Shown in pieces: positions 4,025-40,251 of a stretch of DNA of 64,000 nucleotides. Numbering within the stretch: position 1 is the stretch's first letter; each line of letters starts with the position of its first letter. A program made the translations under genes and the position numbers. The notes beneath the pieces are model-generated. The model was not told the DNA's origin and did not search any database. It saw nothing but the letters and a program-made list of their open reading frames with translations. Origin of the DNA: Eledone cirrhosa (lineage: Eukaryota); the NCBI GenBank assembly GCA_964016885.1, contig OZ024753.1:4650001-4714000 (forward strand), read 5' to 3'.

Positions 4025-4550
4025 GCGGTGGATTGGCAGTATCGGTAGAGGGTCGGACGCCATGCTTTCCAGCATATTTACGTCCCTTAACGATCTGAGT
4101 TCAAATCCCGCCGAGGTTGACTTTGCCTTACATCCTTACGGGGTCGATAAAATAAAGTATCAGTAATGCACTGGGTAATTGCTGGCCTTGTGCCTAAAGT
4201 AGAAACAATTATTATTATATCGGGGTCGATAAAATAAAGTACCAGTAATACACTGGGATAATTGCTGGCCTTGTTCCAAAAGTAGAAACAATTATTATCA
4301 TTATTATTATTATTATTATTATTAAGGGCGGTGGTTTGGCAGTATAGGTAGAGCATCAGACACCATACTTTGCAGCATAGGAGTTATGGCCCTTTACGTT
4401 CTAAATTAAAATCCTACCAGGTTAACTTTGCCTTTCATCCTTATGGGGTCGATGAAATACACACCAGTAACGTACTGGGGTCAATTTAATCGACTTTTCC
4501 CTCCCACAAAATTTCTGGCCTTGTGCCTATATAAAGAAACCATTATTATT
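4025..4550 (+). mobile_element. Cluster of tRNA-derived SINE family A: full copy 4025-4218, duplicated 3' part 4220-4292, diverged copy 4325-4550
   Basis: A box TGGCAGTATCGG, B box GAGTTCAAATCC, central GCCTT(T/A)CATCCTTACGGGGTCGATAAAATAAAGTA(C/T)CAG, tail GTAGAAACAATT(ATT)n. Confidence 0.9.
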
Positions 4551-12356: not shown

Positions 12357-13224
12357 GTGTATGTAAGTCTGTGTGTATTGAATAAGGATCAATGAAATAT
12401 GTATATACAGATGATCGAACAGATGCATGGTGAGCTACTAAATATCATTCTTGGTTTCCAGTAGGGATATAAACGAAAATGTAATACGCTTACTTAGGGA
12501 ATTATGTTTTTATCCTTTTATTATTTTCATGCTTTGAATTATTGGACTGCGTCTTTGATGAGGCATCAACACGAATACTTCTGTAGATTCCACCAACAAT
12601 ATTCGTTATTCTAGTCTGGTCCTTGTTCTATCAATCCATATTTATGTGCGCTCGTATAATTTGATCCTGACGAGGAGTTATGTAATTCATAATATGACAC
12701 TAAATAATGTTCCTTAGATAATTGTTGCGAAAGTTTAATGAGATGTACGGAGCAAAGATCAGATGTGGCGGAAACCACATATGCGTATCGCATACTAAAA
12801 TATGTATATATATATATATATGACTATATATAGAGAGAGAGGGATGGAGAAGGAGAGAGAGAGGGGAGAGAGAGGTGTAAAAACCGACCGCGGTAGGATA
12901 CAAGCTGAAACCACTTGACTCCGGGTTCTGGATTTGACATATCTCTATACCTACACTGCATCTTCCCATGAATTTTTGAGTACTCCCAATATTAGTGGTC
13001 TCCTCGGTCTCTGCCCTACAGACTCACTGTGTTTGTGTGTGTGTGTCTGTATATGCGTGTGTGCGTATGCTCATATATCCATGTAAAAATTGCACTTTAC
13101 TTCGATCTCGAATATGTGGAGTAGGGCGGAAAGAATACGGAATTACTTAATCCCACGTTCTGACGACGGCCAGTTCACCTTCTTCAACGATACCTATAGA
13201 GAAATAAAGACGTACATATACAGA

Positions 13225-13600
13225 ATAATTGTTTCTACTTTCGGCACAAGGCCAGCAATGCACCAGTACATTACTAGTACTTTATTTTATCGACCCCGTA
13301 AGGACGTATATATACAGAATAATTGTTTATATTTTAGGCACAAGACCAGCAATTACCCAGTACATTACTGGTACTTTATTTTATCGACCCCGTAAGGATG
13401 TACATATACAGAATAATTGTTTCTATGTTAGGCACAAGGCCAGCAATTACCCAGTACATTACTGGTACTTTATTTTATCGACCCCGTAAGGATGAAAGTT
13501 AACCTCGACGGGATTTGAACTCAGATCATAAAGGGACGTAACTCTATGCTTCAAAGCATGGTGTCCGACTCTCTACCGATACTGCCAATCCACCGCCCTT
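13225..13600 (-). mobile_element. SINE family A full copy with the 3' half triplicated (~92-bp period)
   Basis: Reverse A/B boxes at 13511-13590; three ATAATTGTTT...TTTTATCGACCCCGTAAGGA units; ATATACAGA at both flanks (possible TSD). Confidence 0.9.
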
Positions 13601-18813: not shown

Positions 18814-19577
18814 TGTTTTTATTTCTTTATATTCGAACAAGAATAATTTTTCTGATAGCAGAATGTCATTAATAATGTAATAGAGTCTAGCATAGCTTTT
18901 GTAGAGGACAAACCTGTATGAGGCATTAAACACCCAAGTGTGTTCAATAGTAGAAGAGAAATATTTCAAGGACATGATGCAATTATCGATGGTCTTACGC
19001 AATAAGGATATTGGCTATCACATCGAAAACAGAGGACCTAAGTTCATGTATAATCTGTAGCTCTTTGGTAGGAATGAACCTCAAGTTGACTCACTGGTAA
19101 AAGCTGCCCACTGGTGTTGCCGGGAATTGGAGTGGTATTTCATATTGCAAGCTCTGAATATGAAGAGTTGTAAGCATGTACATAGCGTATTTTCTATGTA
19201 ACAAAGCGCGTTAAATCTAACTGTTTTATATGATAGTATGTTTTACTTGTAGTATTTACCAGCAAAAGGCTTCGAAATTTTTTATAAATTTTCCTTAATA
19301 TATAAATTGAATAATCGGTATCTCTCTCTCTATATATATATTTTTTACCAATATATATATATATATATTGTTATACTTGGGGAGGGTCATATTTGCATAA
19401 TATTGCCAGAATTAATAACAGAACACACTCACTGTTTGGTTGGTTTTCGCTTCTCGCTGTCTTTTATATCTGCGATCTAACTTACTCGGTCCTCAATGTT
19501 GCCATTGACTGACCGACGGTCAAAAATAATACAGATACAATATAGACACAAACACATATATATAGTTTACATAATTT

Positions 19578-19617
19578 ACATAAATCTTTCGTTGTACATC
19601 TGCAACATCGTCAGTGG
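19578..19617 (-). ncRNA. Minimal PLE-type hammerhead motif
   Basis: CCA-CUGACGA-U-GUUG-CAGAUGUA-CAAC-GAAA-GAUUUA-UG; core boxes and stem II intact, stems I and III weak. Confidence 0.65.
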
Positions 19618-19906
19618 TGTTATATTCTTTGTTCCTCCTGTTGTGTTGTATGTCTACGCCATTTTTTTTATTCAGTCTGTCTATATATTTATTTATTTAT
19701 TTGCTTGTTTGTTTATCTTATTTTATTTTGTCTTCTTTGCGCATGCATTTGCGTGTGTGTATAGTGTTATGTGTGCTGTGTGACTAGTGTGTATAGTGTT
19801 GTGTCTGCTGGGTGACTAGTGTGTGTTTATGTGCTTGTTGTTATTGTGCTTGTGTATGTATTTATTTATCTTATTTTATTTTATTTTATTTACTTATTTA
19901 TACTTC

Positions 19907-20227
19907 TCATAGGTCAGTGTTGTTTGTTTGGGTGTTGTTGTTCCACTCATTCTTTCTGTTTAGCTTTGGTCTTCTAATTTCTATTTCACTGGCCTCTCTG
20001 ATTTGCCTATCTGCTGGGTCATTCCTATGTTTAGATATTATTCTAATTTCTATGTTGTCTATGTTACCGTCATGTTGTTGTCTAGCATGTTCGTATAGTA
20101 CTGACCCGTTTTTTCGTCCTTTTAGTTCCCCCCAGTGTTGGTCTATCCTTTCACCTATGCTATGAGCTGTCTCACCTATGTATGTTGTTGTCATGTTTCT
20201 GCAAGTACCTCTTATGCTATATATATA
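19907..20227 (-). pseudogene. GIY-YIG endonuclease domain of a Penelope-like retroelement (5'-truncated, no RT)
   Basis: YIYSIRGTCRNMTTTYIGETAHSIGERIDQH...SVLYEHARQQH...RQIREASEIEIRRPKLNRKNE fits IY-x-YIGET, R..xH, R.I.E and P.LN of PLE endonucleases. Confidence 0.9.
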
Positions 20228-20454
20228 GAGAGAGAGAGGGAGAGAAAGAGATAGAGAGAGAGAGAGAGATACCGAGATATATATATGTATATATATATAT
20301 TAGAATTGGTGCTCTAAAATAACGATATATATATAAATGTATATATAGTGTATTTTGTAATACACTGTATGCTTAATTAAAAACATTTTGAAGACCTTAC
20401 GCTATTGTTTTAAAGTAGTGACTGTCACTTCTCTTTTCAGCAAACAAAGGGAGA

Positions 20455-20502
20455 TAAGCTGACAGATCTCTGTTTCGTACTGTTGGTACTCCTCAGAGCT
20501 TA
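20455..20502 (-). ncRNA. Type I hammerhead ribozyme (canonical)
   Basis: UAAGCU-CUGAGGA-GUAC(CAACA)GUAC-GAA-ACAGA(GA)UCUGU-C^AGCUUA; stem I extends ~20 bp past an internal loop (20434-20525); predicted cut between 20461 and 20460. Confidence 0.92.
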
Positions 20503-20771
20503 ACACTCCCTTTGCCTGCTGAAAATTATGAATGTTTGATTCTTATAGAATTCCAGTAATAATCAGGAACTGTTTATACAGAGCGGTTGCCGGTCCAGCA
20601 AAAATTGAAAATTAGAATTGGTGCTCTGAAATAGCGATATATATATGAATGTATATATAGTGTATTTGCAATACACTGTATGCTTAATTAAAAGCATATT
20701 GAAGACCTTACGCTATTGTTTTAAAGTAGTGACTATGGCACGTACTTCTTTCTTCAGCAAACAAAGGGAGA

Positions 20772-20819
20772 TAAGCTGATAGATCTCTGTTTCGTACTGT
20801 TGGTACTCCTCAGAGCTTA
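20772..20819 (-). ncRNA. Type I hammerhead ribozyme, second tandem copy
   Basis: Same fold; AUC cleavage triplet creates a C-A mismatch in stem III. Confidence 0.85.
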
Positions 20820-21082
20820 ACACTCCCTTTGACTGCTGAAAATTATGAATATTGGAAAATACACTATATATACATTCATATATATACTCTATATATACAT
20901 TCATGTATATATCATATATATATATACACTATATATACATTCATATATATATCGCTATTTCAGAGCACCAATTCTAATTTTCAATTTTTGCTGGACCGGC
21001 AACCGCTCTGTATAATCAGTTCCTGATTATTACTGGAATTCTATAAGAATCCAACATTCATAATTTTCAGTAGGCAAAGTGG

Positions 21083-21130
21083 TAAACTCTGAAGAGTACC
21101 AACAGTACGAAACAGAGGTATGTCAGCTTA
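21083..21130 (+). ncRNA. Type I hammerhead ribozyme, inverted copy
   Basis: UAAACU-CUGAAGA-GUAC(CAACA)GUAC-GAA-ACA(GAGGUA)UGU-C^AGCUUA. Confidence 0.85.
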
Positions 21131-21244
21131 TCTCCCTTTGTTTTCTACTTTAAAACAATAGCGTAAGGTCTTCAAAATGCTTCTAATAAAGCATAGTGTA
21201 TTTCAAAATACACTATATATATACATTCATATATATATATATAT

Positions 21245-21431
21245 GAACAGATTCAGGACCCCGACGGCTGAGCTCCGGCCGTGTCGAGTTCGGATCTAGC
21301 TGTCGAAACGGCCGGAGCTTAGAGGTCAGCCGTCGGGGTCCTGAATCGTTTCATATTACCCACTCTACTGCCCCAACTATCGAGTACTCTGGTGGGTTCT
21401 GGCTTAGCTGGTTTTTACCAGACTCTGCCTG
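21245..21431 (+). mobile_element. Family B element with fold-back
   Basis: ATTCAGGACCCCGACGGCTG.../...CAGCCGTCGGGGTCCTGAAT palindrome plus the family tail into (TA)n. Confidence 0.8.
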
Positions 21432-21473
<42 letters not shown>

Positions 21474-36691: not shown

Positions 36692-36730
<39 letters not shown>

Positions 36731-36848
36731 GTATATATAGTATATTTGGCAATATGCTGCATGCTTAATTAAAAACATTTTGAAGACCTTACGCTATTGT
36801 TTTAAAGTAGTGACTATGTCACTTCTTTTTTCAACAAGCAAAGGGAGA

Positions 36849-36896
36849 TAAGCTGACATATCTCTGTTTCATACTGTTGATAATCATCAGAGCTTA
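36849..36896 (-). ncRNA. Type I hammerhead (stem II weakened)
   Basis: UAAGCU-CUGAUGA-UUAU(CAACA)GUAU-GAA-ACA(GAGAUA)UGU-C^AGCUUA; U-U at the stem II base. Confidence 0.75.
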
Positions 36897-37366
36897 GCAC
36901 TCGCCTTTGTCTGTTGAAAATTCTAAATGTTGGATTCTTATAGAATTCCAGTAATAATCAAGAACTGCTAATACAGAGCGGTTGCCGGTCCAGCAAACAT
37001 TAAAAATTAGAATTGGTGCTATGAAATAGCGATGCATATATGAATGTATATATAGTATATTTGGCAATATACTGTATGCTTAATTAAAAACATTTATCTC
37101 CCTTTGTTTGTTGAAAATCGAAGTAAGTAACATAGTCACTACTTTAAAACAATATCGTAAGGTCTTCAAAAGGTTTTTAATTAAGCATACAGTATATTGC
37201 CAAATATACTATATATGCATTCATATATACATCGCTATTTCAGAGCACCAATTCTAATTTTCAATTTTTGCTGGACCGGCAACCGCTTTGTATAATCAGT
37301 TCCTGATTATTACTGGAATTCTATAAGAATCCAACATCCATAATTTTCAGCAGGCAAAAGGAGTGT

Positions 37367-37414
37367 TAAGCTCTGATGATTACCAAGAGTATGAAACAGG
37401 GGTATGTCAGTTTA
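37367..37414 (+). ncRNA. Type I hammerhead (stem II base U-U)
   Basis: UAAGCU-CUGAUGA-UUAC(CAAGA)GUAU-GAA-ACA(GGGGUA)UGU-C^AGUUUA. Confidence 0.78.
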
Positions 37415-40251
37415 TCTCCCTTTGTTTGTTGAAATCAGAAGTAAGTGACATAGTCACTACTTTAAAACAATAGCGGAAGGTCTTCAAAATGTTTTTAATT
37501 AAGCATACAGTATATTGCCAAATATACTATATATACATTCATATATACATCGCTATTTCAGAGCACCAATTCTAATATATATATATATATACTGTCGGAA
37601 ATTTTTATTTTACTACCTGAATATACGTCAAATTTGTTTTCTTTTTCTAGTATCTAGTCAAGAGAAAAATTGGTTTTCTATCAGAGAAGTCAGACAGTTT
37701 TAGTGGTTGGTGAAATGAAGTTTGTTGACATCTAGGCCATTACTCGTGCAATATAGTTCAGTGTAAAGGGAATCGGTTGCAAATGTAAAATGAGTAACAA
37801 AATATATCTTCAAGATGAATATAATTTTACTTTCATTAACTATAATGCACGTTTCGTTGGAAGAACATAGTACTGTTGTATTTATAATTCATTCTACCAA
37901 AAAGGATATACGTAGGCCAAATACAGCGAATCTTGCATTGTATATGGCGAAACGAGTTTAAACTGCCTTACATTCACACCGGTGACAGTAAATATTATCA
38001 ACTCATTTCTATAAACACACATATTTCGGGAGTGTTTATGTTTCGATCGATCTGCTAGAAACAAGAGGGAAATTTCCCTCGAATCCCATTTTCTCCATCG
38101 TAAAACGGAAATACTATACAATGTGTTTCTGAGAAATAAAATCAAGACAAGATGCTATCGACATGAATGTATTCGGACCAAGGATCTACACAATAAGCTC
38201 AGTACATCGACAATGTTGTTATTGCTTTCTCATGTGTAATTGGATGCGTTCAAGATCCTCAAAGTTTTATTTTATAGAACTGGTAAGATTAAAGCAGTAG
38301 ATATTCAGTCTCAACATCTTAGGTACAATACTACAAATATAGGACACATTTTGACGTTCATATCTTTTCTCGGGGGTGTTTACATATATTATTTGCAATG
38401 TTTCAAACTGTGAAAGGAATCTAAAAACATTGGTATTTTGCATATAATTTATTCTCCTTAACTCTACTTACATCTTTGAAATAATAAATCACCTTTAACG
38501 TTAAAGATACTGGGGAATGCATCAATCTATACGAGAAGAATATGGCTATCATAAATAAGATAATGATAGCCCAGAAAACAATGCTCTGTGTACACAATTT
38601 GTCACTTAAGAAATAGATCTTAACTCGTTCTCAACACTTAAATTCTGTTCTCCCCGTTTTGGAGAAAAATAATTTCAGAGCACAATGTTACTTTTCCACA
38701 TTTACGTTATTGTTATTTTATAACTTCTAATCTCGAATGACATTTCTATTTGTTTTTCTTTGGTAATATATCACTCTTATTGTTAGCCCAAATCGTGTTA
38801 CAATACTTGACATGTTTCTCACATTTTAGCTCATCTATCATTGAAAGTGTTATGGTAAACATGATGCAAAATTACATAATGTATAATTTAGTTGAGATAT
38901 CACGCTAAGTTAATCTTTAAAACTAAAGAACACTGAAATCTTTCCTCTTATGTTACGATATACATATGGTTACTGTTAAACTCAGTATAACTTTTCGGTG
39001 TTCGCTATTCAGCAATACTGCATATGTTTAGATAAATTATAAATTAATGTTTACAATTTTCATTTTCAATTAAGAATACCTTTGTTTAGACAACACATGT
39101 TACGAAAGTAGCATCAAACGCCATACATTTGCTTCTACATAGTATTAGTGAAATGCATCTCGTAATAATAAATTTATTACACTGATACAAGACCCCCACG
39201 TAGTTAGGGGAATACTGATAATTAAATCATCTGGTATTATTTCTCTAACCAGGCAAACACGCAAGGCTATTTGAAGAAAGAAGAACTGAAGCGGTAGTGA
39301 GGGACAATTAAATATTATTCATTTACTGTCATCAAGCCTGTTGTTAGCAACACGCCATTATTATGCAATCATAATTTTCGATCTGGGCAAGTCTACGAGT
39401 GATTCGCTATAATTTTCACGTTATGCCACAGCAATAATATACACGATATTAAAATGTTATAGATCCATTTGTTTCTATGTATACATGTATATATGCATGT
39501 ATATAAGCACATGTGCATTATTGTGTGTATCTATGTATGTATACATGAATGTATGTATATATGTATATATGTATGTACGCATATATGTATGTATGTATCT
39601 AGCCATTAGAAAAAGCAAAATGAATTATACACCTTTGGTTACAGATACAAAACAGGACACAATGCGCTACTGGTTATTGAACCTGTAAGCTGGTGATTAC
39701 AAGCTGAACACCTAAACCACAAAGTCGATATAGAGAATACGATGACTAACATAATTCAACGGAAATGCCATATGATTGATACATCATTGTGTTTATTGCG
39801 GCCCTTCTGTACACCCATAACAATCATTTTGATCCGAAATTTGAATATAATATAAACTTCCAAGCTGGATTACATATGTTGTCTATATAGGATGTAGTTT
39901 ATTACAATGTATATGCAATTACTGAAAACGGTTATGTGGTCGTAGCTGCGAAAGTTTACATAACACTATAAACTAGCTCTCCTTATTTCGTGAATAGAAC
40001 ATGGTACGTTATTTTAATGAATATAGAAGATTTATGCTCGATATAAAGCCTGAAACACTTTCATTGTGATCTAATATTAATAGGTACTCAACTTATTATA
40101 TTAGACATGCAGTCACTATATACTGATGTATATCAATCTACCTACATTGACCACACCTTTTTATAATGAAAACATGTACAATTACGTTGACTCTATTCAC
40201 TATTGTTTTCGATTTTTATATGTCAATTTTCACTCAAGCATATATATATAT

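What the first reader, a model, noticed from the sequence alone, without database searches (positions are those of the whole stretch)
20300..21235. ~318-nt tandem unit with a canonical type I hammerhead: candidate retrozyme/circRNA element
Seen: five hammerheads over two loci. CUGANGA and GAAA are invariant while the free N7 varies (G, G, A, U, U). Stem I is 6 bp plus ~20 bp and has a compensatory G-C to A-U change at locus 2. Two same-strand hammerheads lie 317 nt apart, so a read-through transcript would excise one monomer. Established: non-LTR retrozymes in several animals are tandem units of a few hundred nt with type I hammerheads that yield circRNAs. Inference: this is such a family; whether it has been described in this lineage I cannot tell.
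Basis: partly seen in the sequence, partly recalled or inferred. Interest (0 to 1): 0.9.

Follow-up and report, generated by a model that had tools for sequence, protein, structure and literature searches.

The report
Penelope-copied hammerhead retrozyme, ageing copy
This is an ageing copy of an abundant 318-base, protein-free jumping repeat that carries a predicted self-cutting RNA motif; its kind (retrozymes) is known, but the shape of its insertions suggests that Penelope-type retrotransposon enzymes copy it from both sides of a DNA break, likely by running round a small RNA circle.

Summary
Observation confirmed, with a correction. Five type I hammerhead cores lie at two loci, two of them 317 nt apart, but only one of the five (20455-20502, minus strand) is fully canonical. 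The locus is not a plain tandem. It is a two-armed, back-to-back insertion in (TA)n, one of at least 2,000 in a 3.0-Gb genome. The arms end at two fixed points 26 nt apart, the 'tail' signature of Penelope-like elements (PLEs). No sampled copy runs into an ORF, so this is not the terminal repeat of a coding PLE. The hammerhead stems and the C3-G8/U3-A8 core pair covary across subfamilies. Arm 5' ends do not pile up at the cut site (8 of 248; 7 expected), whereas those of a coding PLE in the same genome stop dead at fixed RNA 5' ends. One insertion joins a retrozyme arm to a PLE arm. Best reading: a non-LTR retrozyme mobilised in trans by Neptune-like PLEs, likely from a circular monomer. Cleavage and circular RNA were not tested. 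This scan has reported the same anatomy for sister families on other DNA. A new member of a known kind, with useful mechanistic evidence.

The parts
20277..20298 (.). (TA)n target run at the tailed outer end of locus 1
   Evidence: 53 of 58 tailed ends in the positional sample abut (TA)n
20299..20610 (-). Full unit, subfamily A1, outermost unit of the left arm; ends at the tailed fixed end (unit position 319)
20299..20324 (-). 26-nt tail between the two fixed ends (unit 294-319); inferred to lie between two reverse-transcription start sites
   Evidence: tail meaning from PMC11167929
20325..20389 (-). Hairpin cluster just 5' of the tailless end; two hairpins keep pairing through double changes across subfamilies; candidate enzyme-recognition element (inferred)
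   Evidence: (helices 10 and 11)
20455..20502 (-). Canonical type I hammerhead (CUGAGGA, 4-bp stem II, GAAA, stem III, GUC; N17 at 20461); extended stem I reaches about 20434-20525
20611..20856 (-). 5'-truncated second unit of the left arm (unit 72-319)
20772..20819 (-). Second hammerhead, N17 at 20778 (317 nt from the first); C15.2-A16.2 mismatch
20857..20923 (.). 67-nt junction filler between the arms, made of repeated pieces of the unit's TA-rich hairpin
20924..21238 (+). Inverted right arm (unit 265-319, then 1-293), ending at the tailless fixed end
21083..21130 (+). Third hammerhead, degenerate (deletion in stem I, broken stem III); N17 at 21124
36717..37095 (-). Locus 2 left arm, subfamily A2 (unit 1-293 plus 230-319), tailless outer end; hammerhead at 36849-36896
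37093..37576 (+). Locus 2 right arm (unit 155-319 plus 1-319), tailed outer end at (TA)n; hammerhead at 37367-37414

Best explanation
The 318-nt unit is a non-coding, hammerhead-bearing repeat inserted as two back-to-back arms in (TA)n, and it is likely a non-LTR retrozyme whose RNA is predicted to self-cleave to a monomer, likely to be circularised, and likely to be reverse-transcribed in trans by Neptune-like Penelope elements. Shown: the unit, its copy number, the two fixed outer ends 26 nt apart, the (TA)n target, arms longer than one unit, hammerhead covariation, and coding RT plus GIY-YIG elements with the same end layout in this genome. Inferred: the PLE protein nicks both strands of (TA)n and starts cDNA from each nick at one of two internal sites of the RNA (unit 319 and 293); each cDNA runs a variable distance, across the cut site and the unit junction; the two cDNA ends are joined by short microhomology. 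Inferred, less firmly: the template is one circular monomer. The window's copies are about 3-5% decayed, and only one of five hammerheads there is likely still competent.
For: Ends: 58 of 119 arms end at unit 317-319 and 44 at 291-293 (70 loci); 62 of 98 two-armed loci have one end of each type and 9 have two of the same. PMC11167929 shows a PLE protein extending both strands from two internal start sites that define the tail. Non-autonomy: 0 of 59 exposed 5' ends run into an ORF, and none of 50 GIY-YIG loci carries the unit as its own 3' end. Ribozyme selection: 10 of 15 outer stem I pairs, 4 of 5 inner stem I pairs, 4 of 4 stem II pairs and the 3-8 core pair show double changes in 33 copies. 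Endless template: 85 of 119 arms cross a cut site and 48 exceed one unit; 8 of 248 arms end within 4 nt of the cut site against 7.0 expected. Control: 57 of 99 segments of coding family P5 stop in one 17-nt window and 9 at its own hammerhead cut site. One template per insertion: opposite arms share subfamily in 34 of 36 pairs, 13.5% by chance; rare alleles are shared at 1.1-1.6 per kb within loci against 0.13 between loci; in young sister family D, units differ by 0.06% within an arm, 0.10% between arms and 1.31% between loci. Partner: L076 joins a retrozyme arm to a 98.9%-identical P5 arm with no (TA)n between them.
Against: No cleavage, expression or circle was observed. [quoted passage not shown] Li et al. 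found cleavage in only 1 of 9 predicted Xenopus retrozyme dimers. Shared rare alleles number only 22 and could come from gene conversion. No A-to-G strand bias marks an RNA stage in dispersed copies (ratio 1.13, p = 0.15). The window's right arm has alleles tied between A0 and A1 while the left arm is A1, which does not fit one template cleanly. The chimera is a single site, and a chimera between two coding families (P3 and P5, L329) shows that cross-family joins occur, so P5 is not proven to be the carrier. Covariation counts are sequences, not events; the core swap is one event on the tree.
Confidence: 0.72

Rival explanations
1. The element is the same non-autonomous PLE passenger, but the template is an uncleaved linear multimer transcribed from homogeneous arrays; the hammerhead serves processing or expression and no circle is copied.
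For: In vitro a PLE protein prefers unprocessed RNA and ignores hammerhead mutations. Long arrays exist (17 units in L106, at least 7 in L137). Read-through transcripts would have no fixed 5' end either.
Against: The old arrays sampled are heterogeneous (7-17% between adjacent units), yet successive units in one arm are no more divergent than opposite arms (5.6% and 5.6%). In family D, insertions of up to 17 pieces carry one haplotype in both arms, which needs ever longer homogeneous sources. A self-promoted linear RNA should give a hard 5' stop as P5 does; none is seen. Maintained catalysis would cut a multimer.
Confidence: 0.2
2. The unit is only the pseudo-LTR of a coding PLE, and the copies are 5'-truncated insertions of that element.
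For: Identical end layout; hammerheads are normal in pseudo-LTRs; retrozymes are homologous to pseudo-LTRs in Xenopus; coding family P1 shares the last 7 nt before (TA)n.
Against: Arms that pass the unit start continue into the previous unit, never into coding sequence. None of 50 GIY-YIG loci has the unit as its 3' end. A rare or extinct coding parent is not excluded: only the top 150 of 10,596 GIY-YIG candidates were scored.
Confidence: 0.05
3. The repeat is a satellite or foldback DNA element spread by DNA recombination, with a fossil hammerhead.
For: Some tandem arrays exist; no editing scar.
Against: Dispersed copies with two fixed ends at (TA)n, variable 5' truncation, and compensatory changes concentrated in the hammerhead.
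Confidence: 0.03

Closest known systems
Metazoan non-LTR retrozymes (Cervera and de la Pena 2020, PMC7229834, parts 2-4 of 6 read; Li, Clavereau and Pollet 2026, 10.64898/2026.07.22.740005, parts 1-3 of 5 read)
   Same: Type I hammerhead once per unit, unit within 150-450 bp, low GC, no ORF, no LTR/PBS/PPT, head-to-tail copies, PLEs in the same genome, circular monomer predicted to be highly paired.
   Different: Most A/B/C insertions are 1-2 partial units in two opposed arms rather than long arrays. The ends carry the PLE tail in (TA)n, with no discernible target duplication. The dominant sampled subfamily has a U3-A8 core. Circular RNA is shown there and untested here. The parts read describe no cephalopod family and no two-armed layout.
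Insertion unit of EN+ Penelope-like elements, Neptune-type (Craig et al. 2021, PMC8557442, passages read; Frangieh et al. 2024, PMC11167929, parts 1-2 of 4 read)
   Same: 5' truncation, partial tandem, inverted 5'-truncated copy, tail at one end, microsatellite targeting, two internal start sites.
   Different: No RT or EN; the tail is 26 nt rather than 30-40; arms show no hard 5' stop, unlike coding family P5 here.
PLE hammerheads with a U3-A8 core (Schistosoma Cercyon; Cervera and de la Pena 2014, PMC4209133, parts 1-2 of 4 read)
   Same: C3-G8 replaced by U3-A8; palindromic stem III that favours dimeric cleavage (perfect in subfamily B).
   Different: Here the swap sits in a canonical-size hammerhead with a 4-bp stem II and a long stem I, inside one non-coding family that holds both versions.
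Non-autonomous Chlamys elements such as MRC1 (PMC8557442, passage read)
   Same: Non-coding PLE passengers that form pseudo-LTRs and multicopy head-to-tail insertions.
   Different: They resemble their autonomous partner at the 3' end and mostly lack hammerheads; no such 3' homology was found here.

Membership tests
Non-LTR retrozyme | Type I hammerhead in each unit | tested here: met
   Rfam Hammerhead_1 only at E = 9.5
Non-LTR retrozyme | Unit of 150-450 bp in head-to-tail copies | tested here: met
   40 full units of 300-322 nt; arrays L106, L137, L154; most insertions are only partial tandems
Non-LTR retrozyme | No coding capacity, no LTR/PBS/PPT | tested here: met
   no ORF of 120 aa or more over the unit; 0 of 59 exposed 5' ends run into an ORF; PBS/PPT judged by eye only
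Non-LTR retrozyme | Two consecutive intact hammerheads at this locus (the 'active' criterion of Li et al.) | tested here: inconclusive
   both cores present 317 nt apart, but the second has a 15.2-16.2 mismatch
Non-LTR retrozyme | Self-cleavage of the transcript | not testable with these tools
   needs an in vitro assay; covariation supports selection on the fold
Non-LTR retrozyme | Monomeric circular RNA in vivo | not testable with these tools
   no RNA data available for this stretch; indirect genomic support only
PLE-mobilised insertion | Partial tandem, inverted 5' copy, tail at one end, microsatellite target | tested here: met
Autonomous PLE | ORF with RT and GIY-YIG endonuclease | tested here: not met
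Non-autonomous derivative of a named PLE family | End homology with a coding family | tested here: inconclusive
   only 7 terminal nt shared with P1; one chimera with P5; search not exhaustive

The most novel reading that the evidence does not exclude
Each two-armed insertion is a direct DNA record of a Neptune PLE enzyme, such as family P5, running round one circular ribozyme RNA from both nicked strands, guided by a conserved hairpin cluster at the two start sites rather than by sequence homology with the PLE. The lineage (A, B, C, D; about 20,000 units) would then be a circular-RNA parasite that evolved its ribozyme, including the core pair, while keeping the enzyme-docking structure, and gives a ready substrate-enzyme pair for reconstituting circle-templated retrotransposition.
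Probability: 0.45. Interest if true: 0.75.

Novelty: new member of a known kind. Interest (0 to 1): 0.5.

Why it matters
Papers on animal retrozymes propose that PLE enzymes copy their RNA circles, but the ones read here offer co-occurrence and pseudo-LTR homology rather than a mechanism, and the one in vitro PLE study found cleavage unnecessary. This family gives genome-level tests: two fixed start sites matching the PLE tail, a built-in control (a coding PLE whose arms stop at fixed RNA 5' ends while the retrozyme's do not), a retrozyme-PLE chimera that names a candidate enzyme, and subfamilies that differ in the catalytic core pair. It makes the circle-versus-multimer question directly testable. 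The window's own copies are ordinary, decayed members.

Tried and rejected
Rfam at gathering scores: nothing in the window; the E-value scan gave hairpin look-alikes only. Sequencing runs: no RNA holder listed; no reads were laid. Coding parent: none among 50 GIY-YIG loci (30 top-scoring and 20 chosen for long frames, of 150 listed); unit hits there (L047, L186, L200) are separate neighbouring insertions. More retrozyme-P5 chimeras: none beyond L076 (= L286) in 64 loci examined. A four-way junction closed by a long-range stem at the 3' domain: the closing stem and third hairpin show little covariation (helices 8, 9, 12) and RNAalifold does not predict them; only two hairpins are supported. The Fisher test on C3-G8 against U3-A8 is not used, because the swap is one phylogenetic event. 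The GC-rich hairpin at 21241-21356 was considered as a sixth hammerhead and rejected: no CUGAnGA core, and it is a separate repeat family. The GIY-YIG fragment at 19910-20218 was considered as the coding part and rejected: it lies 3' of the tailed end, beyond a microsatellite, and shares no sequence with the unit. Scan look-up by sequence returned nothing. Literature searches for this family or lineage listed no paper describing it; supplements were not read.

Full report
Observation. The window holds the unit at two loci. Locus 1 has a full unit at 20299-20610 and a truncated one at 20611-20856, both on the minus strand, then a 67-nt filler and an inverted arm at 20924-21238. Locus 2 spans 36717-37576 with the same back-to-back layout. 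All five hammerhead cores exist, with N7 = G, G, A, U, U, and the two minus-strand cut sites of locus 1 are 317 nt apart. Only the copy at 20455-20502 is fully canonical. The others have a 15.2-16.2 mismatch, a stem I deletion, or a U-U at the base of stem II with a stem III mismatch. The fold is far from chance (z = -5.75; a strict descriptor hits once in the window and in none of 60 shuffles). Rfam misses it at the gathering score.

Family. The host genome has 3.0 Gb. It is probably a cephalopod, from recalled repeat style and earlier scan notes; I did not verify this. A search with the unit gave 3,187 candidates, of which 40 were scored. A 26-nt end motif has 2,004 exact matches, and a 16-nt motif shared with sister subfamilies has 19,618. 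Full units measure 300-322 nt (40 units). A tree of 150 segments splits subfamily A (C3-G8 core, both window loci) from B (U3-A8 core). In the positional sample, 57 of 85 hammerhead segments are U3-A8 and 19 are C3-G8; that sample was chosen by an exact end motif that leaves out subfamilies C and D. Copies lie 2.5-4.8% from their subfamily consensus, 6.6% in one long array. Subfamily C has a shorter stem III. Family D has 310-311-nt units, about 68% identical to C, and is very young.

Selection on the RNA. On 33 real copies, 24 of 65 proposed pairs show a change on both sides; slid controls give 8-14. They concentrate in the hammerhead: 10 of 15 outer stem I pairs, 4 of 5 inner stem I pairs, 4 of 4 stem II pairs and the 3-8 core pair. 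Stem III does not covary. Two hairpins just 5' of the tailless end also show double changes. The structure was drawn from these sequences and the counts are sequences, not events, so the evidence is the recurrence across subfamilies. The U3-A8 core is in print for Schistosoma PLEs (PMC4209133).

Insertion anatomy. I took the first 100 end-motif matches on the largest contig, 77 loci after merging. Seven were set aside as arrays, complex cases or a duplicate. Of the other 70, 49 are two-armed; 58 of 119 arms end at unit 317-319 and 44 at 291-293. Over all samples, 62 of 98 two-armed loci have one end of each type, 9 have two of the same, and 27 have one eroded end; 53 of 58 tailed and 37 of 46 tailless ends in the positional sample abut (TA)n. 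This is the PLE layout of partial tandem, inverted copy and tail (PMC8557442, passages). PMC11167929 shows a PLE protein cutting and extending both strands and starting at two internal RNA sites, with the tail between them.

Not a coding element. No ORF covers the unit. None of 59 exposed 5' ends runs into an ORF. None of 50 GIY-YIG loci carries the unit as its own end. Several coding families with RT, a CxxC linker and C-terminal GIY-YIG are present, with their own hammerheads, tails and (TA)n ends. The linker places them with Neptune or Nematis. The search for a parent was not exhaustive.

Template. A cleaved linear monomer would stop arms at unit 152. Instead 85 of 119 arms cross a cut site and 48 exceed one unit. 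Only 8 of 248 arms end within 4 nt of it, against 7.0 expected. Coding family P5 is the control: 57 of 99 segments stop in one 17-nt window, probably a transcription start (inferred), and 9 stop at its hammerhead cut site, where a small palindrome may help. Opposite arms share the major subfamily in 36 of 36 pairs and the minor one in 34 of 36. Rare alleles are shared within loci about ten times more often than between close loci, at similar rates for successive units (7 in 5,660 sites) and opposite arms (12 in 7,431). In family D, units differ by 0.06% within an arm, 0.10% across arms and 1.31% between loci. A circular monomer explains all of this. Against it: PMC11167929 found cleavage dispensable and unprocessed RNA preferred in vitro; homogeneous source arrays could supply multimers; no editing scar was found; and the window's right arm is ambiguous between A0 and A1.

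Partner. Locus L076 reads (TA)n, a 278-nt P5 arm (98.9% identical to coding copies), a 28-nt P5 fold-back, a 3-nt microhomology, retrozyme B positions 17-319, then (TA)n. Both P5 pieces stop at P5's usual 5' stop. This suggests one integration event using both RNAs. It is 1 of 59 exposed ends, and no second case appeared in 64 P5 loci. A P3-P5 chimera (L329) shows that cross-family joins occur, and later deletion between neighbours is possible. P5 is a candidate, not a proven carrier.

Comparison. It works like, and meets the testable criteria of, the non-LTR retrozymes (PMC7229834, parts 2-4 of 6 read; preprint 10.64898/2026.07.22.740005, parts 1-3 of 5 read). Those papers propose PLE mobilisation from co-occurrence and pseudo-LTR homology, and PMC4209133 (parts 1-2 of 4 read) already proposed circular templates for more-than-unit copies. 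Searches listed no paper on this family. I did not read any supplement, and those of PMC7229834 and the preprint list further species. Earlier notes of this scan report the same anatomy for locus 2 of this window and for 310-, 422- and 467-nt families elsewhere in this genome; they are unchecked leads, and I tested the D-family claim myself.

Verdict. A real, ordinary member of a known kind at this locus; the family-level anatomy is good evidence for PLE mobilisation (about 0.9) and fair evidence for a circular template (about 0.7). Interest 0.5.

Noticed in passing
window 21241-21432 (+): GC-rich 107-nt hairpin (z = -11.9) with a 75-nt extension. A separate repeat family (2,853 candidates) at (TA)n, with two fixed ends and arms of near-constant length; probably a short fold-back PLE-type insertion whose two arms run off at one RNA 5' end.
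   Followed up: partly
window 19361-20218 (-): 5'-truncated PLE: C-terminal GIY-YIG-like fragment (19910-20218; no Pfam GIY-YIG hit) and about 550 nt of 3' region ending at (TA)n. Three PLE-type elements are stacked at one microsatellite cluster (19.4-21.4 kb).
   Followed up: partly
L076 (G000:C1:4921785-4924810): Chimeric two-armed insertion: coding PLE family P5 arm joined to a retrozyme B arm.
   Followed up: yes
L329 (G000:C1:63562800-63564500): Chimeric two-armed insertion between two coding PLE families (P3 and P5).
   Followed up: partly
L283-L352 (family P5): Most P5 insertions are short run-off copies from a fixed 5' point about 75 nt upstream of its hammerhead cut site, and 9 of 99 segments start at the cut site: a hint that a PLE hammerhead cuts in vivo.
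   Followed up: partly
L181:1700-3032; L266-L273: Young sister family D (310-311 nt, minimal stem III) forms two-armed arrays of up to 17 pieces with one haplotype per insertion; in L181 it landed at the tailless end of an A copy.
   Followed up: yes
L186, L187, L191, L195, L197: Young coding PLE family P1 (up to 938-aa frame, RT plus GIY-YIG) has a U3-A8 minimal hammerhead with a UA triplet and ends in the same last 7 nt as the retrozyme.
   Followed up: partly
L106 (G000:C1:82388000-82397900): 17-unit array of subfamily B with 7-17% divergence between adjacent units and many damaged cores, more decayed than dispersed copies.
   Followed up: partly
L105:~900-1530: Tandem of an internally deleted 163-nt unit that lacks the hammerhead (unit 1-51 joined to 206-319), repeated about four times and still ending at the tailed end in (TA)n.
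   Followed up: no
window 4139-4298 and 13205-13492: Short tandem arrays (83- and 94-nt periods) of a common interspersed repeat, recalled as a cephalopod SINE-like element; not checked.
   Followed up: no
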